Assembly (NCBI GenBank): GCA_035544015.1
Contig: DATKIP010000010.1
Coordinates: 6,449-70,448 of the forward strand
Direction: 5' to 3'
From: Candidatus Saccharimonadia bacterium
GTDB taxonomy: Bacteria; Patescibacteriota; Saccharimonadia; UBA4664
DNA length: 64,000 nucleotides
Below are positions 1,928 through 45,455 of the stretch, one piece after another. Made by a program: the position numbers and the translations under genes. The stretch's first letter is position 1. The number at the start of each line of letters is the position of its first letter. The notes beneath the pieces are model-generated. The model did no database searches and was not told the origin of the DNA. It saw only the letters and a program-made list of their open reading frames with translations.

Positions 1928-4900
1928 CTACCGCGCAGCCGTAAAGGTATTGCGGTATTGGAAATAATCTAAAACGAGCGCCCGACCCACCGTTCCGGCT
2001 TGTTTAATAATCGAAAAAGACGGCTCTGTACCATTCGTCGTACCGGTAGGTACGTTCGTCGCACTCGCGATACTGCCAATCGAAACATCGTCCACAAAGT
2101 ATTCGATGTTATTCGTGGCATGCACCCACACCTTGAAATGGTGCCAGCCGGCTGAAAAGCTTGTGGTCGAGGCTGTTTCCGTGACCGAACCACCCTTGGC
2201 CACCGCATAGACCCATTTCGTCGTACTTACTGCCCGATCAATTTTAAAATACATACCGTCGGTGCAAGCTCCAGTCTGACTATCACACAGACCCATATAA
2301 ACGTCATAATCATTGGTGGCATCTGGCACGGTCGGAATATTAACCGCAAATTCCATTTCTTCGCCTCCACCCACAATCGTTTGCTCGGGCCCGGCGCTAC
2401 CGTACCATACGCTCGCCTTCCCCGTCGTTGTGGTGCCGGTAATCATCGAAAACTGACCAATTCTCGTCGCCAAATCAGGACCAGTGGCGGCCGATGAAGA
2501 ACTAGTTCCACTCGCGCCTGAATTCCAATTTCTCCCCCCGTCCACAAATTCTTCTTCAATATTAAAGCCCCATAATAACCCCGCCGGATCATTACAAAAT
2601 CGCCACGAAGAATCATAATAACAACGCATTCGCCGATAGCCGGAATTGTAGTACATCGCTCCGTCAAGACCAGATGGATCGACGGCAACCGTCTTGGTAT
2701 CGAGCACCAGAACCGCCCCCACCGTATCGGGCGTCCGATTGCCCACATACACTCGGTCATTTGAAGTATCCACAAGCAGTTCTGACAATCCGCCACCATC
2801 CTGCACCTCAAAGGCGTCACCAGCCACCTTTACGAGCGCTGTCCCATCCACCTCCAGCATGCGCGACGGACTACCGGTACCAATACCCACTTTGCCCACA
2901 GCAATCGAACCATTGTAGGCCAGGAGTATGTTGCCATCGGTACCGCTATTGACCTTAGCCCCACCGTAGGCTAGCACGTCGCCACCGTTGGCGTTGCCGG
3001 TGGTGCCGGCCGCCGCCCCAGCCGCCAGCGTCAGCGACCCGCCGGCAACGCCCGTAGCCCCGCTGCCGCCGGCCCCCGCCGTCACCGTGAGAGCATTACC
3101 GGCCGCGTTGGTGGTGCGCGTAAGCACGTTCACGGCGCGCGTCGAGCCCTCGCCAAAGGTCAGATCGGCGCTCGCCACACTGGCCGTCGGCAAATTCACC
3201 CCGATCTGCCCCGACGAATTAACATCAAACAAAATCTTGGAGCTCCCCGCCAGATACAAAGGATATCGGTTGGTACCCGACGTAAGGTTATCCACATACA
3301 CCCCATACGCGTTGGTCGGCGCCACCGAGCCGGCGTTATCCGCCACCTTCAGCACATAGCTATTGGTCACCGCCGAGCTGAGCGTATTCTCAGCCAAAAT
3401 CCCAATCGCGTTCGTCACCGCCCCGGTACCACTATTCACAATAGTTTTTCCCGCAAATCCAATGAGCCGACCAGTCGACACGTTACTCCCCTGCCAGCTC
3501 ACCTGACTATAAGCCGCCATGTAATCCCCGCTATAAGTAATCGAGCCCCCGCTGGCGGGCTGGGCAATAAAGCCATTGCCCAAAGTCGTCGCTGAGTTGG
3601 CCGAGCCCGGCGATGTCGTCAGAGTAGATCGCGCCCCCACCCCAAATCCCGTAGTGTCACTATTGGTCATATCGATCGAGACCGTCGGAATCCCCCCGGT
3701 GGCCGTACCGGTCAAACTCACCGCCCCCGTCACCGTCAAACCCCCCGTACCCTGAATGAGCCCCGTCCCCGCATTCACCCCCACCGCCGTCAGTGCCCCG
3801 GCTGCACTCACCTTTGCCAATGTCGTACCCGCGCTGTTCTGCGCCTGAAACAAATCACCGCTTTGACTCACCGCACCCTGCACCACCAATACTGCGTTGC
3901 TAGCTGCATCTGAAACAAAGAGCCCACTGCTAGTCACCACCCCCCTACCCGAAGCCCAGGCATTACCAATCGTTCGGCTATAAACCCGGACAGTCGAACC
4001 CGTCCACAATTGAGCCCCCCATGCCCTCACCGTTCCCGATCCAGCGGTACCGCCGGGGAAAATAACCGCCACCATGTTACCCGTAAACCCCGTGCCATTC
4101 TGCGTCACACTAAACCGTTGCCAGGTCGTAGTAGCAGTCACCGTAGTTTTGGTTCCCGTCCCCAAAGTCGAACCATCAATACGCAAATCCACCGCCTGCG
4201 TGCCAGTGGTCGTTTTGAGCCACACACTAAAGATAAAAGTCGAACCCGACGCAACCAAAGTCGAGGGCTGACTCACCAAGCCACCAGGGCTACTATCGGC
4301 CAAACTCTCAGCAGTGGTAGAGGTATTCGGCGCCGCATCAGTATCAGCCACCGGAGTAGTCACGTTTGTCTTCGTCCAAACCGCATTGTCAAATTGCTCC
4401 GAATAGAGCAGACCATTCCCACTTTTTCCAATACCGCCAAAGGAACTATTGATAATACCCAACATCTCCAGATCTCCCCCCGCGTTCACTCGGCCAATGG
4501 TCGCCCCCGTGCTATCCTGTACCTGCAAAAAGTCCGCCGTCTGGCTGCTGGCGCCCTGAATCACCACGCCCGTGTTCGAGGCCACATTCGTTGCCACGTT
4601 CAAGGCCGTTTGCGACCCGCCAGCCGCCCCGGTCACGCCCACCGTCCCGGTCGCCGCCGATACCGTCAGATAATCCACGGTGGCGCCACTATTTTGAACC
4701 CGCAACAAGTACCCCGTTTGACTCGTCGATTGTTTTATCACGGCCGTATCAGCACTCGTGGAACCATTGTTGACCAGGGCAAAGTTGCCGTTCTGAAAGC
4801 CCGTACTATTCTGAATATAATTGCCCGAACCCGCCGCCGGCGTACACACCGTACCGCTACATACCGTCGTCCCGCCAATTTTGTATGCCCCCGAAGCCTG

Positions 4901-6145
4901 AATATTCACGCTCAAATCCGAAGCGCTGGCCGTCAGCAAGGTAGTAGCGTCGGACTTCAGCGCCAGATCCCCGCCGCTCGTCTTAAAATACGCCGTCGAG
5001 CTCCCGCCTTCCCACGAAAAACCCGCCAATCGATTCTCGCTCTGGCTCCACAGCGCAATCGCCGGCCACAAGTTACTATTCGTCCGCGCGTCAAACACCG
5101 ACAACCCTGTGCCGTGATCCGCTGCCGCACCGGTGAGCCCGGTCGCAATCACCGCCGCTCCCGCCGCCACGGCGTACTTTGAAACCGCCAGCGTACTCGG
5201 GATGCCGCCCGTCACCGCCGCGTACGATGTCAGATTCGAACCCGCCGCCGAGAAAATCGCTCCGCCGTTCACTTCAAACGTCGCCTGCGGATTAGCCGTA
5301 CCCAGATTCACCCCCACCCGGTTATTCGACGTATCCACGGTCAAAATATTGGTCGTCGTTCCCGCCTTTTGCACCACGAGAGCCGCCACAGAATCGGTGC
5401 TGGGCCGAAACACCGTCTGCCCCGCATTGTTAATCTGCAGCACCACCGCCGCGCCGCGCTGCAGGTTGATGATATCCGCGGTACCACCCGTCTTGTTGAT
5501 GCCGATCGAAGGGTTCGATGTCGAGCTGTCGGTTTGCACCCCCTGGGCCAGCTGCACAAATTGCCCGCTCGTCAGCCCACCCAACTTCCCTGCATTATCG
5601 GCCTGCAACGCATACACCGCCGAGCTGAGTCGCTTCATCGGCAGCAATTCGCCGTCGTACGTGGGCGTATTTGACACCGCCGTCCCGCCCACATCCATGC
5701 TCAGCCACAGCGTATCCTGGTTGAAGTCTATAGCCGTATTCGTGTTACCCTGGCAACTCCCCCCGCTAAACGCACAGTAAGTGCCAAGCGTCGCCGAGAA
5801 GTACCCGTTTTTGACCACCACCCCCGCCGACGACCCCGAGGCCACCGAATTTTGCCACAGCTCTGTCCACTTCAAGGTTCCGCCGGTATCACCTGCTACG
5901 TTACCCGGACCGTCTTGATAGATCTTAAACCGCAGGTTGTAATTACCGTCGGCCACCACCGCCCCAGTGTTGGTCAGCAAACGGCCTTGAAAATTAATCT
6001 GCTTATTAATCCCGGCTGCCGCCTGAACCGACGACTGACCGCCATCCCCCCCAACCACAACGAACCCAGCAACCGCGAGGGTCAGGGCTATACGTAGAGT
6101 GATGCGAACGAGACGCCGACAAAAACCGTGCTGGAGCTGACCCAT
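1928..6145 (-). CDS. giant secreted fibrous surface protein (1405 aa); Gly/Thr/Ala/Ser-rich beta-helix-like repeats; C-terminal concanavalin A-like/LamG-like lectin domain; no membrane or sortase anchor
   Basis: Signal-like N-terminus, then mature AAGINKQINFQGRLLTNTGAVVADGNYNLRFKIYQD module shared with the 18628-25395 giant protein. C-terminal WHHFKVWVHATNNIEYFVDDVSIG is ConA-like. Low-complexity repeats throughout. Confidence 0.8.
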   Translation of the reverse strand: MGQLQHGFCRRLVRITLRIALTLAVAGFVVVGGDGGQSSVQAAAGINKQINFQGRLLTNTGAVVADGNYNLRFKIYQDGPGNVAGDTGGTLKWTELWQNSVASGSSAGVVVKNGYFSATLGTYCAFSGGSCQGNTNTAIDFNQDTLWLSMDVGGTAVSNTPTYDGELLPMKRLSSAVYALQADNAGKLGGLTSGQFVQLAQGVQTDSSTSNPSIGINKTGGTADIINLQRGAAVVLQINNAGQTVFRPSTDSVAALVVQKAGTTTNILTVDTSNNRVGVNLGTANPQATFEVNGGAIFSAAGSNLTSYAAVTGGIPSTLAVSKYAVAAGAAVIATGLTGAAADHGTGLSVFDARTNSNLWPAIALWSQSENRLAGFSWEGGSSTAYFKTSGGDLALKSDATTLLTASASDLSVNIQASGAYKIGGTTVCSGTVCTPAAGSGNYIQNSTGFQNGNFALVNNGSTSADTAVIKQSTSQTGYLLRVQNSGATVDYLTVSAATGTVGVTGAAGGSQTALNVATNVASNTGVVIQGASSQTADFLQVQDSTGATIGRVNAGGDLEMLGIINSSFGGIGKSGNGLLYSEQFDNAVWTKTNVTTPVADTDAAPNTSTTAESLADSSPGGLVSQPSTLVASGSTFIFSVWLKTTTGTQAVDLRIDGSTLGTGTKTTVTATTTWQRFSVTQNGTGFTGNMVAVIFPGGTAGSGTVRAWGAQLWTGSTVRVYSRTIGNAWASGRGVVTSSGLFVSDAASNAVLVVQGAVSQSGDLFQAQNSAGTTLAKVSAAGALTAVGVNAGTGLIQGTGGLTVTGAVSLTGTATGGIPTVSIDMTNSDTTGFGVGARSTLTTSPGSANSATTLGNGFIAQPASGGSITYSGDYMAAYSQVSWQGSNVSTGRLIGFAGKTIVNSGTGAVTNAIGILAENTLSSAVTNSYVLKVADNAGSVAPTNAYGVYVDNLTSGTNRYPLYLAGSSKILFDVNSSGQIGVNLPTASVASADLTFGEGSTRAVNVLTRTTNAAGNALTVTAGAGGSGATGVAGGSLTLAAGAAAGTTGNANGGDVLAYGGAKVNSGTDGNILLAYNGSIAVGKVGIGTGSPSRMLEVDGTALVKVAGDAFEVQDGGGLSELLVDTSNDRVYVGNRTPDTVGAVLVLDTKTVAVDPSGLDGAMYYNSGYRRMRCYYDSSWRFCNDPAGLLWGFNIEEEFVDGGRNWNSGASGTSSSSAATGPDLATRIGQFSMITGTTTTGKASVWYGSAGPEQTIVGGGEEMEFAVNIPTVPDATNDYDVYMGLCDSQTGACTDGMYFKIDRAVSTTKWVYAVAKGGSVTETASTTSFSAGWHHFKVWVHATNNIEYFVDDVSIGSIASATNVPTGTTNGTEPSFSIIKQAGTVGRALVLDYFQYRNTFTAAR

Positions 6146-6236
6146 TCCTCACAAACTACTTACGCTCTCATGGTACGCTGGCCTATCTGGAAACGCAAGC
6201 AGTATTAGCCTCGAAAAACCGTGGAAAAACCGAAAA

Positions 6237-7169
6237 TTACCGCTCCAAAAGCAAATGTCGACGACGCAATTTTCGCAGTTCGCGACGTTCGCCCAGCCAA
6301 AAAAATATCACCATCACCACCGCCAAACCATACAGCGGCCAGGCTGTCACCAATGCCCCCGGCAAGGCCCCCAGTCCGTGCGACGCGCCGTAAGCCTCCA
6401 CCGGTCCGTTCACGACCGTCACCACCTGAAGATAAGCCGTATTCCCCAAGCTGTCCGTCACGCGCACGATCACCTGATACGTCCCAGGCTGCGCGTAGGT
6501 GTGACGAGCCGTCACCGCCCCCTCTCCCGTCTGGCTCGACAAACTCGTGGCGTAATCGCCAAAATCCCAGCTCACCGCGTACGGACCCACGCCACCCACA
6601 ATCGTAATCGTACGCGCAATCTGTTCCCCCGGATTGCCCCCCAGCACTGTTTGGCTGGTCTCCAGAAACAGCTGTTTGCCCACCGTGCCCGCCGTCCGGT
6701 CCAGCGAGGGCGCATCATAAAACACCGTTACCGCCGGCGAATCCGGCCCAAATTGGCCGAGCGCATCGGATACCCGCGCTACCAAGCGATTGGCCCCAGC
6801 AAACAAGTCCACCAGCAGCGAAAAGGTGCCGTCGTCACGACACACGGTCGCGCCCGCAAATACCTCGTTTTTCTCGATCGTCACAAACGTCCCCGCCGGA
6901 CACGCTCCCGACACCGTCACCGGAATGCTCGAGGTATGCGAACCATCGCTGGGGCTCAGAATCGTCGCCGACACGCTCGGAGCCGGCCCGCGCACCGTGC
7001 CGATGAGCCCCACCGAGCCCGATTGCGGATTCACCGCCGGCGCCGCCGCCGAAACCGTCAGGCTCGCGCCCACCAGCAACAACCCCGATACCAGCAGCCC
7101 AAACAACAATCCCGCGTACGAAGTGTGCCGATGCGGCCTCACCCTGCCAAAATGCTCGTTGCCCAGCAT
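6237..7169 (-). CDS. PKD-domain bitopic membrane protein (N-terminal signal-anchor, C-terminal TM helix plus basic tail)
   Basis: VSWDFGDYATS...HTYAQPGTYQVIVRVTD is a textbook PKD motif. C-terminal ...VVMVIFFWLGERRELRKLRRR. Paralog of 32021-32983. Confidence 0.75.
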   Translation of the reverse strand: MLGNEHFGRVRPHRHTSYAGLLFGLLVSGLLLVGASLTVSAAAPAVNPQSGSVGLIGTVRGPAPSVSATILSPSDGSHTSSIPVTVSGACPAGTFVTIEKNEVFAGATVCRDDGTFSLLVDLFAGANRLVARVSDALGQFGPDSPAVTVFYDAPSLDRTAGTVGKQLFLETSQTVLGGNPGEQIARTITIVGGVGPYAVSWDFGDYATSLSSQTGEGAVTARHTYAQPGTYQVIVRVTDSLGNTAYLQVVTVVNGPVEAYGASHGLGALPGALVTAWPLYGLAVVMVIFFWLGERRELRKLRRRHLLLER

Positions 7170-8143
7170 TACCGGCGGTTATTCGCCTGTTCAATGATGT
7201 GCTGGTTGTACCGGCGCAGGCCCAATCGCAGCAGGAAGAACAATACCAACAGGCCCACCAGCACCAGCCCGATCAATCGCCACGGAATCACCCAAAACGT
7301 CAGCGTGCTATCGAGCTTTTTGTTCCCGGCGTACGTCAACGACAATTTGGCCGTATACCGACCAAACAGCCGCTTTTCGCTCCAAGCCAGCTCAAACCGC
7401 CGAATACTATCGGGCAGCACATTGCCACCTTTGTCGTTAACCTTCAGATTAGCTACCTGCCGGCCAAACATATTGGTGATCTTCACCGACCCCTGCGGTT
7501 TTTCGTGCACACTGCCGTCATTCTTGACCCGCACCAAAAAGTCCAGCGGCCCATACTCAAACCAAGGTCCCGGCTTACCCTGCCGCGTCACACCAAATTC
7601 CGTCAACGACAACTGATCTTTAATCTGCCCGCTCACTTTGAGCAATATCAACGTCCCCACGCTCGCCGACAAGGCCACGCCCGTACCCTCAAGCTCCGGC
7701 GGCACCGCCGTAAACCGCACCACCCCAAAGTGTCCGCCCGGCTCCGCGTTCGCCGGCACCGCAATGCTCACCGTAGTCGACTTCAATTCTTGCGGCGCCA
7801 ACCTCAAATCCGGCACCCCCGACACCCAATATTTAAGCGAAAACCGCGTGGCGCCCGTTTCATCGAGCAGCAACCTCGGCTTACCCTCTTCGTCGGCCCC
7901 GGCACCAAAGTCGTCGGCCTTGCCCTTGGCGATCAACTCACCGCGCGTCACATTGCGCACACGAATAGCAGCCGTGACCGTCTGGCCCGGATCCGCCTCG
8001 AGCTCGATCACGGGCGGCGAAATTTCCAATCCCTGGCCGGGCGAACCCACGGGCGGCGTGGGCGTGGAGGCCCAAGCCAACGTGGGGGCCACCATTACAA
8101 CGCCCAGGAGACTAATTAGTCCACTCACATACCACTTACGCAT
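7169..8143 (-). CDS. DUF916/DUF3324-like (CscA-like) cell-surface protein with C-terminal TM anchor
   Basis: Signal peptide MRKWYVSGLISLLGVVMVAPTLAWA. GSVHEKPQGSVKITN and FWVIPWRLIGLVLVGLLVLFFLLRLGLRR at the C-terminus. Paralogs at 25635-26579 and 26588-27652 share the GNVHVVP and WVIPW motifs. Family assignment by motif and topology only. Confidence 0.55.
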   Translation of the reverse strand: MRKWYVSGLISLLGVVMVAPTLAWASTPTPPVGSPGQGLEISPPVIELEADPGQTVTAAIRVRNVTRGELIAKGKADDFGAGADEEGKPRLLLDETGATRFSLKYWVSGVPDLRLAPQELKSTTVSIAVPANAEPGGHFGVVRFTAVPPELEGTGVALSASVGTLILLKVSGQIKDQLSLTEFGVTRQGKPGPWFEYGPLDFLVRVKNDGSVHEKPQGSVKITNMFGRQVANLKVNDKGGNVLPDSIRRFELAWSEKRLFGRYTAKLSLTYAGNKKLDSTLTFWVIPWRLIGLVLVGLLVLFFLLRLGLRRYNQHIIEQANNRR

Positions 8144-8206
8144 TACGATCAGTGTATAGCATAAGCCAGATATGGCGCAACTCGACTGTTTACGAATGCC
8201 AAGCCA

Positions 8207-9229
8207 TTAAAACGAAGCAGTACAAATATATGTCATAGTCGCCGTATACACTCCCGCCGCCTGCGCGCCACCAATATTCACGATATACGATGACGTAAAC
8301 GTATTCGCGTTCGTGGGCGCCAGCCCCGCGGCCACCACGTCACCACTCGCGAACCGATACAAATCAGGCGTGCCATACGCACCGCTAAACGTCCCACTGC
8401 CCGCACCGCTCGGATCTGCCCCCAGCGCCGGGGTCCCATTGGCCCGCAAATTCAGGCCAAACTGGCTCGTCCCGATCACACTCCCCGTCTGCGTCGCCAA
8501 GGCTGGTATCGTATTTACACCCGACGCCAACGTGGTACCCGTAACAGTGATCGCGTAGCCATTCGCCGCATTCGTCTGCGCCTGCATCACGCTCGTGCCC
8601 GACCGCGTCACCGTGGGCGAAAAATCTCCAAAATCAATCGTCGAGCCACTTACCGTCGTGCAGTTGCCCGCAATCGACGTACCGACACAAAACACCAGAA
8701 TCTCCGGCGTCACCCCGGTAAGCTGCACCGGCTGGGCGGTACTCAGCGCCACCGTGCCCGTATCGACCGCCCCCGTTGCACCGTCGGTGCCCGTGTAGGT
8801 CGTAATGCGCACAAAGTAGCTCAAGTTGGCTGTGCTCGGGTTGGTGATAGACCCAAGCGTAAAACTCATGGCCGTTCCCGCACCCACCGGCGCCGCCGTG
8901 CGCGTAATATACGGCGCTCCATTCGAGCCGTTCACCATACTAAACCCGCCCGGGCTCTGCGCCGCCAACGTCGCGCTCGTAGTCACCACGCCAGCCGGCG
9001 TCACGCACGCCCCTGTGGGCGCACCACAAATCTGAAAACCCACGGAGCCGATGCTAGCCGCCGTCGCCGTGGTCGCGTTCACGGCGTAGCTGGTGCTCAC
9101 GCCCTGGCCGCTCGATCCCACCACCACATTGCGGGGCGCCAAGCCAGCCGCCTCGGTGGCCAGTGGCATCAATCCAGTCACCCACACCCCCGCCACTATG
9201 AGTCCAGTGCGCAGTTTGCCCATGATCAA
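8207..9229 (-). CDS. secreted WxL-like surface protein (divergent C-terminal WxL-type motif)
   Basis: Signal peptide. Conserved FQICGAP, LVFCVGTS and FGLNLR-N-TP-G-D-SG motifs. C-terminus GVYTATMTYICTASF resembles G-Y-G-LTWTL of WxL domains with W replaced. 4-nt overlap (ATGA) with the upstream gene. Confidence 0.55.
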   Translation of the reverse strand: MIMGKLRTGLIVAGVWVTGLMPLATEAAGLAPRNVVVGSSGQGVSTSYAVNATTATAASIGSVGFQICGAPTGACVTPAGVVTTSATLAAQSPGGFSMVNGSNGAPYITRTAAPVGAGTAMSFTLGSITNPSTANLSYFVRITTYTGTDGATGAVDTGTVALSTAQPVQLTGVTPEILVFCVGTSIAGNCTTVSGSTIDFGDFSPTVTRSGTSVMQAQTNAANGYAITVTGTTLASGVNTIPALATQTGSVIGTSQFGLNLRANGTPALGADPSGAGSGTFSGAYGTPDLYRFASGDVVAAGLAPTNANTFTSSYIVNIGGAQAAGVYTATMTYICTASF

Positions 9230-10317
9230 AACGTTGCAGTACAGATGTACGTTAACGTCGCCGTATACACACCTGCCGCTTGATCGCCGCCCACATTCAC
9301 GACATACGAGTTGGTAAACACATTGCTCTTCGTCACCCCCGCCACACTCGCTACCGTATCGCCATTGAAAAACCGAAAGCTATCGGGCGTGTTGTAGCCG
9401 CCAAATCCCGTCGCCGTACCGAGGCCGCTCACGTCCGTGCCCACATTGGGAGTCGCGTTATCGCGCACATTGGTGCCAAATTGCGCCACCCCTGTAGCAG
9501 CACTACAACTCGGCGTGCAACCGCCGGAATTCCCGCTCTGCGTCCCCATGGCCGCAATGGTGTTCGAGCCGCTCGTGAGCGTGGTGCCGTGAAGCGTGAT
9601 GGCGTAGCCAAAACCCGCATTGGTGCTCGCGCTCATGAGGCTCGTGCCGGTGTTCGTGGCTGTGGGCGAAAACACCCCCAGGTTCACCGCCGACCCCGTG
9701 ATATTGGTGCAATCGGTCCCGCTCGTTCCCACGCAAAACACGAGGCTCTCGGGCATCACGCCGCTCGCCACGATCTGGTTGGCCGTATCCATCGCCACCG
9801 CCCCAAAGTCCGTCCCCGGATACGCCGGCGCTGCAGCCGCCGCATCAGTATAGGTTGAGATGCGCAGAAAATACTCTTTGTTGCTAGCGCTCGGATTCGT
9901 CACATTGTTGAGCACCACCGAGGCCGCACCGTTCAAGGTAGCCGCCGAATGCGTCAGCACCAGATTCGTCCCCGAGGCCGAGGCGCCCGTCTGCGACCCC
10001 ACCGACCACCCCAAGCCGAGCGACATACTCCCAAGCGTCGCCGCCCCCAGGCTGGCCCCGCTCGAGTCACCCGTACCCGCACAGGCCGTAGTCAGCACCG
10101 GCGAGTCACAAATCTCAAATTTGATCGAGCCCAACGATTGGCTCCCCGAAAGCGTAAACCCAATCGTGTACGCCACCCCCGTGGCGCCCCCGGCCGAGGT
10201 CGACACCACCGCATTGCGGCTCGTCAGCTGGCCAGCCGCCTGCGCGACAGGCGATAACCCAGCACACACCACGAGCCCCACAACCATCGCCGCTATTATT
10301 TTTTTTGTTTGTTTCAT
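9226..10317 (-). CDS. secreted WxL-like surface protein paralog
   Basis: MKQTKKIIAAMVVGLVVCAGLSPVAQA signal. FEICDSP, LVFCVGTSGTDC, FGTNVRDNATPNVGTDVSG. C-terminus GVYTATLTYICTATF. Confidence 0.55.
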   Translation of the reverse strand: MKQTKKIIAAMVVGLVVCAGLSPVAQAAGQLTSRNAVVSTSAGGATGVAYTIGFTLSGSQSLGSIKFEICDSPVLTTACAGTGDSSGASLGAATLGSMSLGLGWSVGSQTGASASGTNLVLTHSAATLNGAASVVLNNVTNPSASNKEYFLRISTYTDAAAAAPAYPGTDFGAVAMDTANQIVASGVMPESLVFCVGTSGTDCTNITGSAVNLGVFSPTATNTGTSLMSASTNAGFGYAITLHGTTLTSGSNTIAAMGTQSGNSGGCTPSCSAATGVAQFGTNVRDNATPNVGTDVSGLGTATGFGGYNTPDSFRFFNGDTVASVAGVTKSNVFTNSYVVNVGGDQAAGVYTATLTYICTATF

Positions 10318-10348
10318 AGCTTACTCACCCCCGCGGACGAGAAATCAA

Positions 10349-11452
10349 TTAGAACGTACCGGTCGCGACCCAAGTAAACGTCGCACTATATGCACCAGGC
10401 TTGGTCGTATTCCCTGCTTGCGCCGCATAGGCCACAGTGTAAAGGTTGGGAACGGTCGGCCCAGTAGAGCTCGCCACCGTCCGCGGCGTAGCACCGGCCT
10501 GGAACGCGAAGTTGTCGATCGTATTGTATGGCGCGCTCACCGCTCCCGAACCCGACCCACTAATGTCGGCGCCAATGTTGGGCGTAGCGTTATCGCGCAA
10601 GTTAATGCCAAACTTCCCCGTCCCAGCCACAAACGTTCCCGCCGTGCCCCCAAAATCCGTGATACAGTCGTTGCTCGAGCTCAGACTCCCCGCGCAAGCC
10701 GTGCCGCCGGTGCCGCCCGGACTCGTCGTGATGTAGGTGATCACGTATCCCGTAGTCGCGTTCGTATCCACCGCCATGAGCGAGATGCCGCCGGAAGGCG
10801 TCGAGGAGCTCAACACGTTGTCGCTGCCCACACCCAAGTTCACCGTGGTTCCAGTCAAACCACCGCCCCCGCAACCCGTGCCGCTCGTGCCCACACAAAA
10901 CGTCAGGCTTTCTTGCACGTTCGCCGCCAAACTAATCTGGCGCGCCGTCGACACCGCCATGGCGCCGAAGTCGAGCTCAGCCGAAGCCCCCGTGTCGGAA
11001 TACGTCGTAATACGCGTGTAGTAACTCAAGTTGGCCGTATTCGGATTGGTCACCGCGTTAAACTGCGCGGTAAATGTAGCATTACCCGCGGTACCCGTGG
11101 CGTTCGAAATGATCACCTGGGTAGCATTCTGCGTTCCCGAAATCGCAAAGCTACTGAGTGCTGCCGAGGTCGGCGCCGTAGTCTGGAACGTCGCAGTCGC
11201 TATGCTCGCACTGCTCGGCGCCGCACAGGTGGTTTGCTGTAGCGGCGAGTCACACACCTGAAATTTAATTCCCTTCACCGTCGTCGCGGTCGGACCCGTC
11301 CACGTAAACGCATAGCTCGTACTCGCCGCCGCCGCCGAACTCGTGAGCGTAGTCGACCGAGCCGTAATCTGAGCCGCACTCGCCGCCGTGGGGATACTCG
11401 ACGCCCCCAGCACCAACGACACCAACCCAAACCACGTCACCGCCCGACGCAT
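10349..11452 (-). CDS. secreted WxL-like surface protein paralog (start taken at the MRRAVTWFG signal peptide; the ORF track extends to 11539 via a TTG codon)
   Basis: FQVCDSP, LTFCVGTSGTGC, FGINLRDNATPNIGADISG. C-terminus GAYSATFTWVATGTF retains the W of WxL. Confidence 0.55.
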   Translation of the reverse strand: MRRAVTWFGLVSLVLGASSIPTAASAAQITARSTTLTSSAAAASTSYAFTWTGPTATTVKGIKFQVCDSPLQQTTCAAPSSASIATATFQTTAPTSAALSSFAISGTQNATQVIISNATGTAGNATFTAQFNAVTNPNTANLSYYTRITTYSDTGASAELDFGAMAVSTARQISLAANVQESLTFCVGTSGTGCGGGGLTGTTVNLGVGSDNVLSSSTPSGGISLMAVDTNATTGYVITYITTSPGGTGGTACAGSLSSSNDCITDFGGTAGTFVAGTGKFGINLRDNATPNIGADISGSGSGAVSAPYNTIDNFAFQAGATPRTVASSTGPTVPNLYTVAYAAQAGNTTKPGAYSATFTWVATGTF

Positions 11453-11596
11453 CAACCCGCGGTAATGAGCGTATAAAATTTCCCGCTTGGTCATGTGCTT
11501 GATAAATCCTTCATTTATTTTGCTGCGGCCACTATCCAATTCATCATAGCATAAGCACTGTTTCGAGTGTCAATGAACTCGCGTGCGGCAAGCACT

Positions 11597-12373
11597 TTAA
11601 TAGGTCCCGGTAGCCACCAACTCCAATGTACTCGTATATTTTCCACCTGGCGTCGTCGTGCTCATGTTGGCCAAAAAGGTCATGGTGTAGTCCGTCTCAC
11701 CCGACGACTTCGGCGCCGAAGCCACCACTTCACCGCTGTTAAAGCGCCATTTATCCGAAATCGTATACGGCCGCGTCGTGCCATAGGTTCCGGTCACCCC
11801 GTCGCCCGCCACGCCGTAGCTAAATGATCCCGACGGCACTTGCGCCGGATTGGCGCCCACCGCCGCCGACGTATTAAGCACCGTGTTCACCCCAAATTGC
11901 TCCGTCCCCACACTCGACGCCGTATCGGTAGTCAGCGGGGTCAGCGCGTGACTACCGTTTTTGGGTGGCGTCCCGATAGCGGTTATCACATAGCCATACG
12001 TCGTGTAGTTGATGGCCGAAAACGTCGCTACTCCCGTCGCCTTCACGCTCGTCGACAAGGCCCCCAAATTAACCGTAGCCGTATTCACAATAAACGTCAG
12101 CCCCGGCTGAGCCGTCGTATTAAACCCCGCTCCCGACGAATAATTCGTCGAGCTCGAAGTGCCCACCGCGGTTTCACCCAAACTACTACCCCCATCGTCC
12201 ACCCCCGGCGCGTAGCTATAATGCGACGAAGCCCCCGTGAAATCCCCGCCGGCTCCCACTTCACTCTCGTTAAGGCTATAGCTCGCCGATTGCTGCAGCT
12301 CGGCATGCGCCGCCCCACTCGCGGCCACCGCCACGACACACGCCACCACCAACTGTCGACTCCAACGTCTCAT
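11597..12373 (-). CDS. shorter secreted WxL-like surface protein paralog (258 aa); first gene of module-A operon
   Basis: Signal MRRWSRQLVVACVVAVAASGAAHA. FGVNTVLNTSAAVGANPAQVPSG. C-terminus GKYTSTLELVATGTY. Confidence 0.5.
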   Translation of the reverse strand: MRRWSRQLVVACVVAVAASGAAHAELQQSASYSLNESEVGAGGDFTGASSHYSYAPGVDDGGSSLGETAVGTSSSTNYSSGAGFNTTAQPGLTFIVNTATVNLGALSTSVKATGVATFSAINYTTYGYVITAIGTPPKNGSHALTPLTTDTASSVGTEQFGVNTVLNTSAAVGANPAQVPSGSFSYGVAGDGVTGTYGTTRPYTISDKWRFNSGEVVASAPKSSGETDYTMTFLANMSTTTPGGKYTSTLELVATGTY

Positions 12374-12483
12374 TAAAATCCATCTTGAACCATTTGCCCA
12401 CCACGCGCAATCCGCTCAAGCTCCGATGGAATATCCGAAGCTTGAGCAGTATACTGAAGCTCATAGTAAGCTAGTGAGCCACC

Positions 12484-13431
12484 ATGCCCCCGGGCAGCAC
12501 CCCACCTTTGGCGCCGTCTCCCCAGACGCCCCTCCCCAAACCGCCTCCGCCGGCCAAAAACCGGCACGCTGGCTGGCACCGACTTACCGACCGGGCCAAT
12601 GTCGTCGGCGCCGTGGTCGGCCTCTTTGCCTTTTTGCTCGCCGTCGGCGGGGTAGTGGGATTTTACTACGCCCGGCTCAACCAGCCGGCCAAAACCGAAC
12701 CCAAGAGTAATGTCACCGCCCTCAGCCCCGCTGAGCTCGCCAAACTCAGCGAGATCGGCAATAGCCTCGGCAGCTCCGGCCAAACCCTCAACATCGGCGC
12801 CGGCGCCCTCTTCCGCGGCAAGGTCGATGTGGCCGGCGACCTTTCCATCGGCGGCCGCCTCAACGCCAACGGCCCCGTCACCCTCAGCCAGCTCAATGTC
12901 ACCGGTGGCGGGGGTGTGATCGGCCTCAATGTCGGCTCCAATCTCAACGTCACCGGCACCACCGTCCTGCAGCAAACACTGAGCGTCACCGGACTCGCCA
13001 CCTTCGCCGGCGGCATCAATGTCGGCGGCAATGCCAGCTTCAACGCCATCAACGCCAGCTCACTGGCCGTGCGCAACCTCAGCATTTCCGGTCCGCTCGT
13101 CGTCGGCCACCTCACCACCCAGGGCCCCACGCCGGGCTTCGTCACCGGCCCGGCCGTCGGCTCAGGCGGCACCGCCAGCATCAGCGGCAACGACACCGCC
13201 GGCACGCTCAATTTCAACACCGGCGGCGGCCCACCCAGCGGCGTGCTCGGCACCATCACCTTCCGCGCCGCCTACACCGCCACCGTCCACGTGCTGCTCA
13301 CTCCGCTCACCGGCGCCGGCGCCGCCACGCCCGCCTATGTCACCCGCACCACCGGCGGCTTCCAGGTGCACACCGACACCGCCCCACCCAGCGGCGCCGT
13401 ATTGAGTTATGATTACTTGGTAACGCAATAG
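12484..13431 (+). CDS. membrane-anchored protein: Pro-rich N-terminus, one TM helix, beta-helix-like L-x-V-x-G repeats, conserved C-terminal beta-sandwich (H-type-lectin/tail-fibre-like?) domain
   Basis: TM VVGAVVGLFAFLLAVGGVVGFYY. Repeats LNVTGGGGVIGLNVGSNLNVTGTTVLQQTLSVTGLATFAGGINVGG. C-terminal GTITFRAAYTATVHVLLTPL...VLSYDYLVTQ. Paralog of 33709-34836. Divergent from the module-A operon. Confidence 0.6.
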   Translation: MPPGSTPPLAPSPQTPLPKPPPPAKNRHAGWHRLTDRANVVGAVVGLFAFLLAVGGVVGFYYARLNQPAKTEPKSNVTALSPAELAKLSEIGNSLGSSGQTLNIGAGALFRGKVDVAGDLSIGGRLNANGPVTLSQLNVTGGGGVIGLNVGSNLNVTGTTVLQQTLSVTGLATFAGGINVGGNASFNAINASSLAVRNLSISGPLVVGHLTTQGPTPGFVTGPAVGSGGTASISGNDTAGTLNFNTGGGPPSGVLGTITFRAAYTATVHVLLTPLTGAGAATPAYVTRTTGGFQVHTDTAPPSGAVLSYDYLVTQ

Positions 13432-13450
13432 TAATCACGGAAACTCCACC

Positions 13451-14026
13451 ATGCCTCGCGTAGAACCAAATCCCCCCTCTGTCATTCTCGGCAAATACTG
13501 GCCCCTCACCCTCTTGGCCGTCGTGCTTGTACTCGGCGGCATCGGCGCCGTGGTCTACCAAAACCGCACCGGCCACCGCCTCTCCCTCACGCCCACTCCC
13601 AGCGCCCCCGCCGCCACCCCCGCCTCGACTGCCACCCTCTATCTCTTCCCCGCCGCCGGCACCATTACCGCCGGCGGTACGCTCACCATCGAGATCCGCG
13701 AAAACAGCGGCGCCGCTGCCGTAAACGCTGTACAGGCCAACTTCACCTACCCCGCCGATAAGCTCGATTTCGTCAGCGCCGACGCCGCCACCGGCGCCTT
13801 TAGCATTGCGGCCGAATCCACCGGCCAAAACGGCCTGGTCAAGATCGCCCGCGGCACCATCAAACCCGTGAGCTCCGACCATTCAGTCGCCAAAGTCACC
13901 TTCCGCGCCAAAACCACGCCCGGCACCGCCGCTCTGAGCTTCGCCGCCGGCTCGGCCCTCATTTCGACCCCCGGCGCCGCCAACATCCTGGGCACCCCCA
14001 CCGGCGCCACCCTCACCATCAAATAA
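13451..14026 (+). CDS. membrane-anchored protein with cohesin-like beta-sandwich domain (tentative)
   Basis: N-terminal TM WPLTLLAVVLVLGGIGAVVY. LTIEIRENSGAAAVNAVQANFTYPADKLDFVSADAATGAFSIAA...VAKVTFRAKTTPGTAALSF resembles type-I cohesin strand pattern. Confidence 0.4.
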   Translation: MPRVEPNPPSVILGKYWPLTLLAVVLVLGGIGAVVYQNRTGHRLSLTPTPSAPAATPASTATLYLFPAAGTITAGGTLTIEIRENSGAAAVNAVQANFTYPADKLDFVSADAATGAFSIAAESTGQNGLVKIARGTIKPVSSDHSVAKVTFRAKTTPGTAALSFAAGSALISTPGAANILGTPTGATLTIK

Positions 14027-14039
14027 CCCCCCGCTAGCC

Positions 14040-25395: not shown

Positions 25396-25483
25396 GCGTC
25401 GGCTGTTTCCACCCGTTACCCGAAATCTTCGACTCGTTGCGAGACGACTGGGTACGCGCACACCTTCACACAATTACTCCCTA

Positions 25484-25634: not shown

Positions 25635-26579
25635 TTATCGGCGGTGACGCGGCCGCACCCACAACCACCACGCCAACCCGCCCACCGCCGCGAGCGCCAG
25701 CAACCCCACCATCCACACCACTATGGCTCCCGCATACCAAAAACCGGTCACCAACGTCTTGGTAGCCTCCGTGCCGTCGTACCGGTATGTAGTTGTCAGC
25801 GAATACCGTCCCGGCAACCACGCCACCTTCGTGCCCAGCAAACCGACCCGATAGCGCCGAAAACTTTCGGGCAAAATTACTCCCGACGCCTCGTTGATAG
25901 CCGCTCGCTCCACCACCCGCCCCACCGGGTCCTTCACCTCCACCACCCCGCGCGGCACCACATGCACGTTGCCGCCGTTTTGAAACCGCAGCTCCACCCG
26001 ACCCGGCAACCGCACCCACCCCGCCGCGCTCGTCTGCGACGCCAAGCGCAAATCAACCTGCTGGCCACCATCCTTCACCGCCAACACCAAGCTCGAAAGT
26101 ACCTGCTTCACTCCCACCTGCTGACTCGCCGGCTGCCCGGCGTCATCCACCGCCGTCGCCAACACCGCCCCATAATGGCCGCCCGGCGCTAGCGTAGCGC
26201 GGTTATCAATCGTTACCAACACCTCCATCGTCGCCCCTGCCGACACAAACACCGCATTCTTCTCGAGCACCATCCACGACGCCAACCCATACTTGTGCAC
26301 GAGCTCGCTCGCCGGCGTGCCCAAAAACGCCACCCCACCTTGCTCGTCGAGCGCCCCAAAGTCCACCACGCTCAACCGAAAATTCTGATCGGTCGGGTTG
26401 CGATTCGTTAACTTCAGCGCATACTGCACACTCGGCTTATCCGCCGGCACCACCACCTGCGCAAACGCCGGTGATACCACAAGACCCGTCCCGCCCGTCG
26501 CCGCGCTCGCCCATCCTGGCCAAAAACCGCTCACCAAAGCAAAAATAATCCCAGCGCACCACGCTCTCCCCCGCCGCAT
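25635..26579 (-). CDS. DUF916/DUF3324-like (CscA-like) surface protein with C-terminal TM anchor
   Basis: Start at MRRGRAWCAGIIFALVSGFWPGWASA signal (ATG 26577-26579). FQNGGNVHVVPRG. C-terminal GFWYAGAIVVWMVGLLALAAVGGLAWWLWVRPRHRR. Confidence 0.55.
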   Translation of the reverse strand: MRRGRAWCAGIIFALVSGFWPGWASAATGGTGLVVSPAFAQVVVPADKPSVQYALKLTNRNPTDQNFRLSVVDFGALDEQGGVAFLGTPASELVHKYGLASWMVLEKNAVFVSAGATMEVLVTIDNRATLAPGGHYGAVLATAVDDAGQPASQQVGVKQVLSSLVLAVKDGGQQVDLRLASQTSAAGWVRLPGRVELRFQNGGNVHVVPRGVVEVKDPVGRVVERAAINEASGVILPESFRRYRVGLLGTKVAWLPGRYSLTTTYRYDGTEATKTLVTGFWYAGAIVVWMVGLLALAAVGGLAWWLWVRPRHRR

Positions 26580-26587
26580 CTCGATAC

Positions 26588-27652: not shown

Positions 27653-27665
27653 CTCAAGACCCAGG

Positions 27666-28724: not shown

Positions 28725-28832
28725 TCAAACTCCATCAACACTACTTGCTCAGTAGTGTATCCGAAGCATAAGAAGCATGCAACTGCCTATCGGTCTGTGA
28801 GGCCGAAAGACCCGCGCTTCATTACCTTCCTC

Positions 28833-29972: not shown

Positions 29973-30064
29973 TTGTTTAACTTTATTTTCGCCACCACAG
30001 TGATTGGGTGGTTCGAGAGACTTTTAAGGACTTTTTAAGAATCTGCTCCCAGCTTATCGGAAAC

Positions 30065-30110
30065 CGCTTATGCCTGTCAACTCTTTTTTACAACAGTTGA
30101 CAAGCATAAG
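30065..30110. repeat. 17-bp inverted repeat (1 mismatch) with 12-nt T-rich loop between two WxL-like genes
   Basis: gcttatgcctgtcaact cttttttacaac agttgacaagcataagc. Each arm contains TTGACA/TGTCAA. Confidence 0.6.
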
Positions 30111-30122
30111 CCCAGTCCCTGG

Positions 30123-31906: not shown

Positions 31907-32019
31907 CTGGCAGATGCAGCGCTAGGAGAAAGCGAAGCCCGGAACGAGGCGTAGTCAGATCTACGGTGAGTGAGGACTGGAGGTTTCGACGCCGCGATGG
32001 GCTGCCAGATGGTTTTGTT
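31896..32019. repeat. perfect 18-bp inverted repeat (aacaaaaccatctggcag / ctgccagatggttttgtt) flanking an 88-nt loop; the 3' arm on the mRNA strand contains the start codon of 31175-31906
   Basis: Arms at 31896-31913 and 32002-32019 are exact reverse complements. Confidence 0.8.
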
Positions 32020-32020
32020 C

Positions 32021-41110: not shown

Positions 41111-41191
41111 GTGAGGCTATAATACCATATTAGAGACAATAAATGAACGAGCTGATCAAATAATTAAGAGCTAACCCTGTAAAGAAACATC

Positions 41192-44075: not shown

Positions 44076-44122
44076 ACCAGCCACCCGATCCATCACCGAC
44101 GGCTTAAAACACAGCATATAAC

Positions 44123-45397: not shown

Positions 45398-45455
45398 TAT
45401 ACGTCTCTGACGAACCAACCGTTACATTGCCAAATGAACCAAAAAGCTGTCCAGC

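What the first reader, a model, noticed from the sequence alone, without database searches (positions are those of the whole stretch)
1928..6145. Giant fibre proteins share a conserved mature N-terminal module and carry lectin-like C-termini
After signal cleavage both giants begin A[AT]GINKQ[IV]NFQG[RK]..N..G..V.DG.Y...FK[IL]Y, a compact beta-rich module. The 1405-aa protein ends in a ConA/LamG-like domain (WHHFKVWVHATNNIEYFVDDVSIG). The interior is Gly/Thr/Ala-rich beta-helix-like repeats, some shared nearly verbatim between the two giants (VGVN[AS]GTGLIQGTGGLT[VA]TGAV). The conserved N-terminal module is a candidate docking element for the co-encoded surface complex.
Basis: partly seen in the sequence, partly recalled or inferred. 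Interest (0 to 1): 0.55.

Follow-up and report, generated by a model that had tools for sequence, protein, structure and literature searches.

The report
Adhesive fibre genes beside pilus operons
Two giant secreted proteins of an uncultured Saccharibacterium (a tiny bacterium that lives attached to other bacteria) are distant relatives of the adhesive surface fibres the predator Bdellovibrio uses to recognise prey. Each sits at the end of an operon for a recently described pilus, which suggests what the fibres' conserved base might attach to.

Summary
The 1405-aa protein (1928..6145, minus strand) and the 2281-aa protein (18628..25473, minus strand) share a roughly 120-160-aa all-beta module that starts at the predicted signal-peptide cleavage site. 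The similarity is 33% identity (E 2e-17) and lies in the mature protein, not the signal peptide.

The module is a large unannotated family found in Saccharimonadia and other Patescibacteria. It is remotely related to the N-terminal domain of Bdellovibrio MAT (mosaic adhesive trimer) fibres: 77 of 90 members hit NCBIfam NF053851, best E 3e-14, but below its curated cut-off.

C-terminal tips are mosaic. The 1405-aa protein ends in a SO2946-like domain. A weak Laminin_G_3 hit in a homologue hints that this domain is ConA-like. The 2281-aa protein ends in a different, commoner beta-rich domain with no lectin evidence.

The "co-encoded surface complex" is the Pam donor-strand-exchange pilus operon (2026 preprint). 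That paper mentions only a co-localised "tail fibre-like protein". In 50 of 56 related loci the fibre gene follows this operon, and the fibre subtype tracks the operon subtype.

Docking of the module onto a Pam component is plausible but untested. MAT fibres also work in bacteria that have no reported Pam pili.

The parts
1928..6145 (-). G1: 1405-aa secreted fibre protein (the finding)
   Evidence: Single ORF. N-module plus SO2946-like tip.
6020..6145 (-). G1 signal peptide (residues 1-42), predicted cleavage after VQA
   Evidence: Read from the sequence. The alignment of homologues starts its conservation exactly at A-[AT]-G-[IV]-N. No signal-peptide predictor was run.
5543..6022 (-). G1 N-terminal module (residues 42-201), MAT-N-like beta-sandwich including the collar motif LGGLTSGQF
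   Evidence: HMM hit E 4e-63. AF2 model pLDDT 78. NF053851 Bdello_MAT_N 28.3 bits, E 1.3e-6.
4781..5422 (-). G1 second module shared with G2 (residues 242-455)
   Evidence: BLASTP 36% identity over 244 columns, E 4e-22.
3719..3784 (-). G1 copy of the near-verbatim motif VGVNAGTGLIQGTGGLTVTGAV
   Evidence: Regex match.
2576..2728 (-). G1 'neck' motif (VLVLDTK...GAMYYNSGYRRMRCYYDSSWRFC) preceding the tip
   Evidence: Recurs, sometimes twice, before different tips in P0036-P0039, L080 and L081. Present in 6 of the 59 complete related fibres (5 within the C-terminal 300 residues).
1985..2464 (-). G1 C-terminal tip: SO2946-like_C domain (residues 1228-1387), probably a ConA-like jelly roll
   Evidence: PF22237 42 bits against a cut-off of 27. 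Homologue P0036 gives weak Laminin_G_3 and TS_C hits.
18628..25473 (-). G2: 2281-aa secreted fibre protein (probable true start ATG at 25395)
   Evidence: Single ORF. N-module hit E 2e-41.
24946..25311 (-). G2 N-terminal module (residues 55-176) with collar LDGLDSSAF
   Evidence: NF053851 30.1 bits, E 3.6e-7, aligned to profile positions 11-80.
22873..23604 (-). G2 copy of the second shared module (residues 624-867)
18631..19119 (-). G2 C-terminal domain, a divergent member of the commonest ('type I') tip of related fibres; fold unknown
   Evidence: By a motif test, 31 of 61 C-terminal tails examined (59 complete related fibres plus G1 and G2) carry this tip type. G2 itself did not match the motifs; it was grouped with this type by single-linkage BLAST clustering and direct hits to L007 and L025. 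The S. aalborgensis 916-aa fibre matches G2 2119-2280, E 8e-15. No Pfam or NCBIfam hit.
14040..18626 (-). 1528-aa Kelch beta-propeller giant directly downstream of G2
   Evidence: Pfam Kelch families. A Kelch giant follows the fibre in 25 of 48 related loci.
11597..12373 (-). pam cluster A: PamT (tip pilin)
   Evidence: NF058579 244.3 bits against a cut-off of 240.
8207..11539 (-). pam cluster A: three Pam pilins (396, 363 and 340 aa)
   Evidence: NF058581 CPR_Pam_pilin_C at 85, 141 and 166 bits against a cut-off of 55.
7169..8143 (-). pam cluster A: membrane-anchored PamC/D-type chaperone (signal peptide, two beta domains, C-terminal TM plus a basic tail)
   Evidence: Sequence. 8 of 11 family members hit Pfam PF06030 WxLIP_PGBD/DUF916, best E 9e-8. 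Matches the architecture described in the preprint.
6237..7169 (-). pam cluster A: PamR (RbmA-like terminator/anchor with C-terminal TM), immediately upstream of G1
   Evidence: NF058578 296 bits against a cut-off of 300. Pfam PKD and Glucodextran_B Ig domains.
25635..32983 (-). pam cluster B, upstream of G2: PamR-like (32021..32983), a 243-aa ORF, three pilin-like proteins (354, 379 and 352 aa) and two chaperone-like proteins (374 and 359 aa)
   Evidence: Paralogy with cluster A. PamR model 289.8 bits. The same order precedes G2-like fibres in L083 and L084.
12484..13431 (+). Divergently transcribed 315-aa membrane protein; its paralogue is at 33709..34836 (+)
   Evidence: 32% identical paralogues. 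Present divergently upstream of the operon in 31 of 56 loci.

Best explanation
G1 and G2 are secreted adhesive surface fibres of the MAT (mosaic adhesive trimer) type in a Saccharimonadia (TM7/CPR) epibiont.

Shown:
- Each is made with a Sec-type signal sequence.
- The mature protein starts with a conserved Ig/FN3-like beta-sandwich of about 120-160 aa that is remotely homologous to the N-domain of Bdellovibrio MAT fibres.
- A long G/T/A/S-rich shaft built of duplicated modules follows.
- The C-terminal tip differs between orthologues: SO2946-like and probably ConA-like in G1, a commoner uncharacterised beta domain in G2.
- Each fibre gene is the gene after a Pam pilus operon (PamT, pilins, membrane-anchored chaperone, PamR). 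This order is conserved across Saccharimonadia, and the fibre subtype tracks the operon subtype.

Inferred:
- The fibre is a trimer.
- The conserved N-domain is the cell-proximal end. It fixes the fibre to the epibiont surface, most likely to a product of the adjacent pam operon. Candidates are the membrane-anchored PamR encoded immediately upstream, the PamC/D-type chaperone, or the pilus itself.
- The exchangeable C-terminal tip binds glycans or other surface epitopes of the host bacterium, so tip swapping sets host range.
For: - The window belongs to Saccharimonadia: homologues are named Saccharimonadales or Saccharibacteria.
- N-module similarity between G1 and G2: E 2e-17.
- Family size and position: always directly after the signal peptide, in proteins of 140-3307 aa among the 150 listed hits; 22,229, 6,338 and 999 representatives at E<=1e-3, 1e-10 and 1e-30.
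- NF053851 Bdello_MAT_N hits G1 (module residues 125-158 to profile 127-160) and G2 (residues 3-69 to profile 11-80). The two hits are collinear. 77 of 90 family members hit at E<=1e-3, best 3.3e-14.
- Mosaic tips: the C-terminal 300 aa of 59 complete related fibres fall into several unrelated types. P0038 and the S. aalborgensis genes combine the same N-module and neck with other tips.
- Synteny: 50 of 56 loci have the chaperone gene upstream and 48 of 56 have PamR-like and pilin genes. The commonest order, in 30 loci, is divergent gene | PamT > pilin > pilin > chaperone > PamR > fibre.
- G2-like modules follow B-type clusters in L083 and L084.
- Pam identities. The Pam preprint describes PamR as a membrane anchor that donates an N-terminal strand, and notes a co-localised 'tail fibre-like protein'.
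Against: - NCBIfam scores (28-30 bits) are far below the curated cut-off of 60, so this is a distant relative and not a curated MAT member.
- Trimer formation and the beta-prism shaft were not tested.
- No interaction between the N-module and any Pam protein was computed or measured.
- MAT fibres function in Bdellovibrio, Micavibrio and other bacteria. The Pam preprint finds Pam pilins exclusive to CPR, so the ancestral partner of the N-domain is not Pam. Synteny may reflect co-regulation only.
- In the AF2 monomer model the conserved first strand (INFQGR) is part of the domain's own sheet, not a free donor strand.
- In S. epibionticum a related DUF916/WxL-like cluster with a giant FN3 protein was non-essential in co-culture Tn-seq (PMC10633639 tables).
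- About 10% of loci with enough flank lack the operon.
Confidence: 0.6

Rival explanations
1. The fibres are MAT-like adhesins that attach to the epibiont's own cell wall or membrane (peptidoglycan, a secondary polymer or a lipid) through the N-domain, independently of Pam proteins. Placement after the pam operon only ensures co-expression of two separate host-contact devices.
For: - The homologous N-domain occurs in bacteria with no reported Pam system (MAT paper and its Table S3; the Pam preprint abstract reports pilins exclusive to CPR).
- The MAT authors also expect binding to an unidentified surface element.
- 6 of 56 loci with enough flank lack the operon.
Against: - The adjacency is very strong and has a conserved order.
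- Fibre subtype co-varies with operon subtype.
- The fibres have no recognisable cell-wall-binding, LPXTG, lipobox or TM element.
Confidence: 0.3
2. The fibre is a structural part of the Pam pilus. Its N-domain would be an acceptor or donor in donor-strand exchange, so the fibre is the true tip adhesin (as FimH and PapG are) or an alternative terminator.
For: - The N-domain is Ig-like.
- PamT is a bare pilin domain with no adhesin domain, and the preprint found no adhesin or receptor-binding element.
- The fibre gene is inside the operon order, directly after pamR.
Against: - Profile-profile comparison shows no relation between the fibre termini and the Pam pilin domain (hhalign probability <=0.2%).
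- The AF2 monomer folds as a complete sandwich.
- The cryo-EM filaments in the preprint were composed of PamA and PamB only.
Confidence: 0.15
3. The giants are phage tail-fibre genes or prophage remnants, and are not cellular surface proteins.
For: - The Pam preprint labels the neighbour 'tail fibre-like'.
- MAT fibres were originally annotated as phage-related tail fibres.
- The architecture, a conserved N-terminus with a mosaic tip, is like that of a tail fibre.
Against: - tblastn of the module against 50,697 phage records finds nothing.
- Foldseek against BFVD gives no hit with E<=0.001.
- The proteins carry Sec signal peptides.
- The neighbours are pilus and housekeeping genes, with no phage structural genes.
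- The position is conserved across many genomes.
Confidence: 0.03

Closest known systems
Bdellovibrio bacteriovorus MAT (mosaic adhesive trimer) fibre superfamily (Caulton et al. 2024, PMC10769870; NCBIfam NF053851 Bdello_MAT_N)
   Same: - A signal peptide is followed at once by a conserved beta-rich N-domain (about 130 aa in MATs, about 120-160 aa here) that has no PDB homologue.
- The N-domains show significant, collinear sequence similarity.
- Both are long fibre proteins of about 1000 aa or more.
- C-terminal tips are swapped between relatives and include lectin-type folds.
- Both belong to bacteria that must recognise and attach to other bacteria.
   Different: - Scores are below the curated family cut-off (28-30 bits against 60).
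- The host is a monoderm CPR epibiont, not a diderm predator.
- There is no S74 protease/chaperone domain.
- The tips differ: SO2946-like, and a CPR 'type I' domain.
- The genes are embedded at the end of Pam pilus operons, whereas no such linkage is described for Bdellovibrio.
- The trimeric beta-prism shaft was not verified here.
Pam pilus system of CPR bacteria (Troman et al. 2026 preprint, 10.64898/2026.03.03.709456; NCBIfam NF058578, NF058579 and NF058581)
   Same: The co-encoded clusters are pam operons: PamT at 244 bits, pilins at 85-166 bits, PamR at 290-296 bits, and membrane-anchored chaperones. The preprint's neighbourhood network contains a consistently co-localised 'tail fibre-like protein', which is very probably this family.
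   Different: The giants themselves are not Pam components. They have no pilin domain and are not discussed in the preprint beyond that one phrase. This window carries two paralogous operon-plus-fibre units instead of one operon.
WxL / WxLIP (DUF916-DUF3324) cell-surface clusters of Lactobacillales (Hassan & Williamson 2022/2023, PMC9772566 and PMC10599100)
   Same: - Both have a membrane-anchored two-Ig-domain protein with a C-terminal TM; 8 of 11 homologues of the window's chaperone hit WxLIP_PGBD.
- Both have several small secreted beta proteins and a large adhesin-like protein in one cluster.
- In S. epibionticum the equivalent genes gave DUF916 and WxL Foldseek matches.
   Different: - The pilin-like proteins give no Pfam hit of any relevance, WxL included.
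- The giants lack a C-terminal WxL domain.
- The CPR system is experimentally a donor-strand-exchange pilus, which has not been shown for WxL clusters.
Phage tail fibres and receptor-binding proteins
   Same: They share the logic of a conserved attachment end plus a mosaic receptor-binding tip. One homologue has a weak hit to the Mtd N-terminal domain.
   Different: There is no sequence or fold match to phage proteins. The giants are Sec-secreted cellular proteins in a chromosomal operon.

Membership tests
MAT fibre superfamily (NF053851 / Caulton 2024) | A conserved beta-rich N-terminal domain of about 130 aa immediately after the signal peptide | tested here: met
   The module starts at the predicted cleavage site in G1, G2 and all aligned homologues. 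The AF2 model is an all-beta sandwich.
MAT fibre superfamily (NF053851 / Caulton 2024) | The N-domain scores above NCBIfam's curated cut-off (60 bits) | tested here: not met
   G1 scores 28.3 bits and G2 30.1 bits.
MAT fibre superfamily (NF053851 / Caulton 2024) | Statistically significant homology of the N-domain to the MAT N-domain | tested here: met
   E 1.3e-6 and 3.6e-7 on collinear parts of the profile. 77 of 90 family members hit at E<=1e-3, best 3.3e-14.
MAT fibre superfamily (NF053851 / Caulton 2024) | Intertwined trimeric beta-prism shaft | not testable with these tools
Only composition (G/T/A/S-rich) and internal module duplications were seen.
MAT fibre superfamily (NF053851 / Caulton 2024) | Mosaic, exchangeable C-terminal tip domains | tested here: met
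   Several unrelated tip types occur among the 59 complete related fibres. The same N-module and neck are combined with different tips in P0036-P0039, L080 and L081.
MAT fibre superfamily (NF053851 / Caulton 2024) | C-terminal S74 peptidase/chaperone domain (present in 13 of 21 Bdellovibrio MATs, so not obligatory) | tested here: not met
   No Pfam hit in whole or chopped G1 and G2. They would be of the 'NS74' type.
Pam pilus system (the co-encoded cluster, not the giants) | PamT equivalog and pilins carrying the Pam pilin C-domain | tested here: met
   NF058579 scores 244.3 bits against 240. NF058581 scores 166, 141 and 85 bits against 55.
Pam pilus system (the co-encoded cluster, not the giants) | PamR equivalog | tested here: inconclusive
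   296.0 and 289.8 bits against a cut-off of 300, with full-length alignment.
Pam pilus system (the co-encoded cluster, not the giants) | PapD-like chaperones carrying a C-terminal TM helix (PamC/PamD) | tested here: inconclusive
   The architecture is visible in the sequence, and 8 of 11 homologues hit the Ig-like WxLIP_PGBD domain. No NCBIfam Pam chaperone model matched, and the fold was not modelled.
Pam pilus system | The giant fibre itself contains a Pam pilin domain | tested here: not met
   hhalign of the N-module and of the type I tip against the PamT family gives probability <=0.2%.
ConA-like lectin / LamG (G1 tip) | Match to a ConA-like family model | tested here: inconclusive
   PF22237 SO2946-like_C scores 42 bits against 27. 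Laminin_G_3 appears only in homologue P0036 at 23 bits against 27.6. There is no PDB sequence match, the fold was not modelled, and sugar binding is untested.
WxL large surface protein | C-terminal WxL domain | tested here: not met
   No Pfam WxL hit in G1, G2 or their tips.
Phage tail fibre | Sequence or fold similarity to phage fibre proteins, in a phage context | tested here: not met
   tblastn against the phage collection found nothing. BFVD Foldseek had no hit with E<=0.001 and TM below 0.4. The genomic context is chromosomal.

The most novel reading that the evidence does not exclude
The MAT-type N-domain is the adaptor that mounts an exchangeable host-recognition fibre onto the Pam donor-strand-exchange pilus apparatus, through PamR, the membrane-anchored chaperone or the pilus tip. 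Saccharibacteria would then carry a composite pilus-plus-fibre host-capture organelle in which tip swapping sets host range. This would name, for the first time, a binding partner for the MAT N-domain, which is still unidentified in Bdellovibrio. Through the DUF916/WxLIP link, it would also suggest that the WxL 'cell-surface complexes' of Firmicutes are relatives of the same assembly principle.
Probability: 0.2. Interest if true: 0.8.

Novelty: new variant of a known kind. Interest (0 to 1): 0.6.

Why it matters
How Saccharibacteria and other CPR epibionts choose and hold their host bacteria is largely unknown. Type IV pili and, recently, Pam pili have been implicated, but the Pam preprint names no receptor-binding element.

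This analysis identifies a large, unannotated family of mosaic fibres in Saccharimonadia that are related to the prey-recognition fibres of Bdellovibrio. It shows that they are built into Pam pilus operons.

Three things follow:
- The fibres are concrete candidates for host-range determinants.
- Two recent and so far unconnected discoveries, MAT fibres (2024) and Pam pili (2026), are linked.
- The open question of what the MAT N-domain binds can now be tested against a short list of operon-encoded partners.

Tried and rejected
- **Pfam on full-length giants.** It returned nothing. The SO2946-like hit appeared only when the C-terminus was scanned alone, so whole-protein scans of these low-complexity giants are unreliable.
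- **Phage origin of the N-module.** Rejected: no tblastn hit in 50,697 phage records and no significant BFVD fold match.
- **WxL domain in the small cluster proteins.** No Pfam hit and no PDB sequence hit. NCBIfam later named them Pam pilins.
- **AF2 model of the 340-aa pilin.** Built from seven window paralogues, it came out at pLDDT 52 and pTM 0.39, too poor to search with.
- **Foldseek against afdb50.** Not available.
- **Relation of the fibre termini to the Pam pilin domain.** hhalign was negative.
- **G2 tip and other tips against Pfam.** Nothing significant; the best was one BclA_C hit at E 0.007.
- **G1 internal region 575-735.** It looks like a carbohydrate-binding jelly roll by eye (...WGAQLW...), but has no Pfam or PDB sequence match.
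- **Short 'proteins' of 170-250 aa returned by the homology searches.** At least two (P0201 in L081 and P0255 in L082) look like gene-call fragments of a split or frameshifted giant gene, not stand-alone modules. The rest were not checked individually.

Full report
**What is in the window.** Genes run almost entirely on the minus strand. Housekeeping genes are present: IleRS, HisRS, FtsZ/FtsA, RodA, RelA/SpoT, RecJ and ParA. Homologues of the proteins studied are named Candidatus Saccharimonadales, Saccharibacteria or Patescibacteria. The window is therefore a chromosome piece of a Saccharimonadia (TM7, CPR) bacterium.

The finding's interval 1928..6145 is one ORF of 1405 codons, here G1. The second giant, G2, is 18628..25473, 2281 codons. 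A 1528-aa Kelch-repeat protein lies between G2 and the next cluster.

**Checking the observation.**
- Both giants start with a hydrophobic signal sequence. They then read AAGINKQINFQGR... (G1 residues 43-55) and ATGINKQVNFQGK... (G2 residues 56-68).
- BLASTP aligns G1 42-199 with G2 55-174 at 33% identity, E 2e-17. The similarity is in the mature protein and covers about 120-160 residues, not the signal peptide.
- The quoted motifs are present where implied.
- Composition is G/T/A/S-rich. G2 contains large internal duplications, up to 73% identity over 147 aa. 'Beta-helix-like' could not be tested.
- G1's C-terminus (residues 1228-1387) matches Pfam SO2946-like_C above threshold when scanned on its own: 42 bits against 27. 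A close homologue adds weak Laminin_G_3 and trans-sialidase lectin-domain hits. 'ConA/LamG-like' is therefore reasonable for G1 but unproven.
- G2's C-terminus has no Pfam or NCBIfam match and is a different domain.

**The N-terminal module is a family.**
- A profile of 14 sequences (A2) was searched against 1.84 billion cluster representatives. It found 22,229 proteins at E<=1e-3, 6,338 at E<=1e-10 and 999 at E<=1e-30.
- In every listed hit the module sits at residues of about 1-260, directly after a signal peptide. The proteins range from 140 to 3307 aa.
- In the window only G1 and G2 carry it, once each.
- Pfam has no model for it.
- The AlphaFold2 model has pLDDT 77.8 and pTM 0.72 and is an all-beta sandwich.

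**What the module is related to.** NCBIfam release 20 contains NF053851, 'Bdello_MAT_N', the N-domain of the mosaic adhesive trimer fibres of Bdellovibrio.
- G1's module hits profile positions 127-160 (28.3 bits, E 1.3e-6).
- G2's module hits positions 11-80 (30.1 bits, E 3.6e-7). The two hits are collinear parts of one 162-position model.
- Of 90 family members scanned individually, 77 hit this model at E<=1e-3, best 3.3e-14, and essentially nothing else.
- All scores are below the curated cut-off of 60 bits. This is a distant subfamily, not a curated member.

The MAT paper (PMC10769870) states the following:
- This domain has no PDB homologue and is thought to sit next to the predator surface.
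- The C-terminal tips are swapped during evolution.

Its supplementary list of MAT relatives in other predators, as far as it is held here as text, does not include Patescibacteria. No paper in the searchable library joins MAT with Patescibacteria or Saccharibacteria.

**Mosaic tips.** Fifty-nine related fibre genes in GTDB genomes have a complete C-terminal end. Their last 300 residues fall into several unrelated groups.
- By a motif test, 31 of 61 tails (the 59 plus G1 and G2) carry a Cys-rich 'type I' domain.
- G2 did not match the motifs. Single-linkage BLAST clustering, and direct hits to two of these fibres, place it as a divergent, Cys-poor member of that group.
- The other groups have quite different endings.
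- G1's SO2946-like tip is rare in that set. It recurs in metagenomic homologues (P0036, P0037) and in Ca. Saccharimonas aalborgensis. There the fibre gene appears split into a 169-aa N-module ORF (L336_0610) and a 445-aa ORF with the same neck and tip.
- A short neck motif (...GAMYYNS...FRCY..W..C) precedes several different tips.

A conserved N-terminus combined with exchangeable tips is the MAT pattern.

**The co-encoded complex.** Between the giants lie two paralogous clusters of secreted proteins. NCBIfam names their components:
- 11597..12373 is PamT (244.3 bits, cut-off 240).
- 8207..9229, 9226..10317 and 10349..11539 carry the Pam pilin C-domain (166, 141 and 85 bits, cut-off 55).
- 6237..7169 and 32021..32983 are PamR-like (296 and 290 bits, cut-off 300).

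The 324-, 374- and 359-aa proteins have a signal peptide, two beta domains and a C-terminal TM helix with a basic tail. That is the architecture the preprint gives for the membrane-anchored PapD-like chaperones PamC and PamD. Eight of 11 homologues also hit Pfam WxLIP_PGBD, formerly DUF916.

The source is Troman et al., bioRxiv 2026.
- Cryo-EM of Ca. Mycosynbacter amalyticus filaments identified PamA and PamB pilins joined by donor-strand exchange.
- PamT is proposed as the tip, and PamR as the terminator that donates an N-terminal strand and anchors the pilus in the membrane.
- About the present family, the paper says only that 'a tail fibre-like protein' is consistently co-localised with the operon.

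**Strength of the linkage.** A scan of GTDB species representatives gave 220 confirmed relatives. The best 79 loci, where the record names a taxon, are Saccharimonadia or other Patescibacteria.
- Of the 56 loci with at least 6 kb upstream, 50 have the chaperone gene upstream of the fibre. Forty-eight have PamR-like genes and 48 have pilin genes.
- The commonest order, in 30 loci, is divergent 315-aa gene | PamT > pilin > pilin > chaperone > PamR > fibre.
- A Kelch giant follows the fibre in 25 of 48 loci with enough downstream sequence.
- Five further loci chosen for divergent modules all carry chaperone-like genes within about 5 kb.
- G1-like modules follow A-type operons. G2-like modules follow B-type clusters in the same order as in the window (L083, L084). 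Fibre subtype therefore tracks operon subtype.

**Interpretation.** The best-supported reading is that G1 and G2 are MAT-type adhesive fibres. The N-domain is the cell-proximal assembly and attachment end, and the exchangeable C-terminal tips contact the host bacterium.

The candidates are PamR (encoded immediately upstream, membrane-anchored, and a strand donor), the PamC/D-type chaperones, or the pilus itself. This step is inference. Four points weigh against it:
- MAT fibres work in bacteria for which no Pam pili are reported.
- The AF2 monomer folds as a complete sandwich that includes the conserved first strand.
- The fibre termini are unrelated to the pilin domain.
- A related cluster in S. 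epibionticum (SEML1_0625-0628: Ig-like, DUF916, WxL-like and a giant FN3 protein) was non-essential in co-culture Tn-seq.

The main rival is a Pam-independent anchor with mere co-expression.

**Novelty.** MAT fibres (2024) and Pam pili (2026 preprint) are both known. Three things are not described in the literature I could search:
- The 'tail fibre-like' neighbour of pam operons is a large Patescibacteria family with a MAT-type N-domain.
- Its tips are mosaic.
- Fibre and operon subtypes co-vary.

I rate it a new variant of a known kind, of moderate-to-good interest, chiefly because it makes the unidentified partner of the MAT N-domain and the host-recognition element of Pam-bearing epibionts directly testable.

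Noticed in passing
window 7169..8143, 25635..26714 and 26588..27712 (all minus strand): Relatives of the window's PamC/D-type membrane-anchored chaperone match Pfam WxLIP_PGBD (DUF916): 8 of 11 family members scanned, although the window's own 324-aa protein gave no hit. In S. epibionticum the equivalent cluster gave DUF916 and 'WxL domain' Foldseek matches in a supplementary table. The Pam preprint never mentions WxL. The WxL/WxLIP surface clusters of Lactobacillales may therefore be relatives of the CPR donor-strand-exchange pilus.
   Followed up: partly
window 14040..18626 (minus strand): A 1528-aa Kelch beta-propeller giant lies directly downstream of G2. A Kelch giant follows the fibre in 25 of 48 related loci, and S. 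epibionticum has an RCC1 propeller protein in its related cluster. It looks like another conserved, undescribed member of the operon.
   Followed up: partly
window 12484..13431 (+) and 33709..34836 (+): These are paralogous membrane proteins with a Pro-rich N-terminus, a TM helix and repetitive beta-rich sequence, ending ...YDYLVTQ and ...FDYWVVQ. One is transcribed divergently from each pam cluster, and a homologue is present in 31 of 56 related loci. The C-terminal domain of the 375-aa paralogue also gave a BLAST match (E 4e-8) to a 1731-aa ORF downstream of the fibre gene in L003, and one fibre (L078) has a similar ending.
   Followed up: partly
window 3941..4423 (minus strand; G1 residues 575-735): An internal segment of G1 (...FIFSVWLKTT...WQRFSVT...VRAWGAQLWTG...VYSRT) looks by eye like a carbohydrate-binding jelly-roll domain inserted in the shaft. 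It has no Pfam or PDB sequence match.
   Followed up: partly
window about 40900..46000: This is a low-GC island (39-50% against about 60% elsewhere). It holds a Schlafen/AlbA_2-domain protein (44123..45418) next to an aldo-keto reductase, and may be horizontally acquired or defence-related DNA.
   Followed up: no
window, whole length: GC skew is strongly and uniformly negative on the plus strand (about -0.1 to -0.34 in every 2-kb bin). Nearly all genes are on the minus strand, as expected for one replichore with a strong bias towards co-directional genes. ARAGORN found no tRNA genes in 64 kb.
   Followed up: no
L081 (Ca. Saccharimonas aalborgensis CP005957.1) 5202..17731: This is a third variant of the cluster. 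It has two chaperone-like genes, a 461-aa Laminin_G_3 protein and two N-module fibres. One fibre is apparently split into 169-aa and 445-aa ORFs (L336_0610 plus its neighbour), which suggests a frameshift or a pseudogene in the reference genome.
   Followed up: partly
window 13451..14026 (+): A 191-aa secreted or anchored protein lies between the Kelch giant and the divergent 315-aa gene. It gave no family match, and only one related locus (L003) has a homologue.
   Followed up: no
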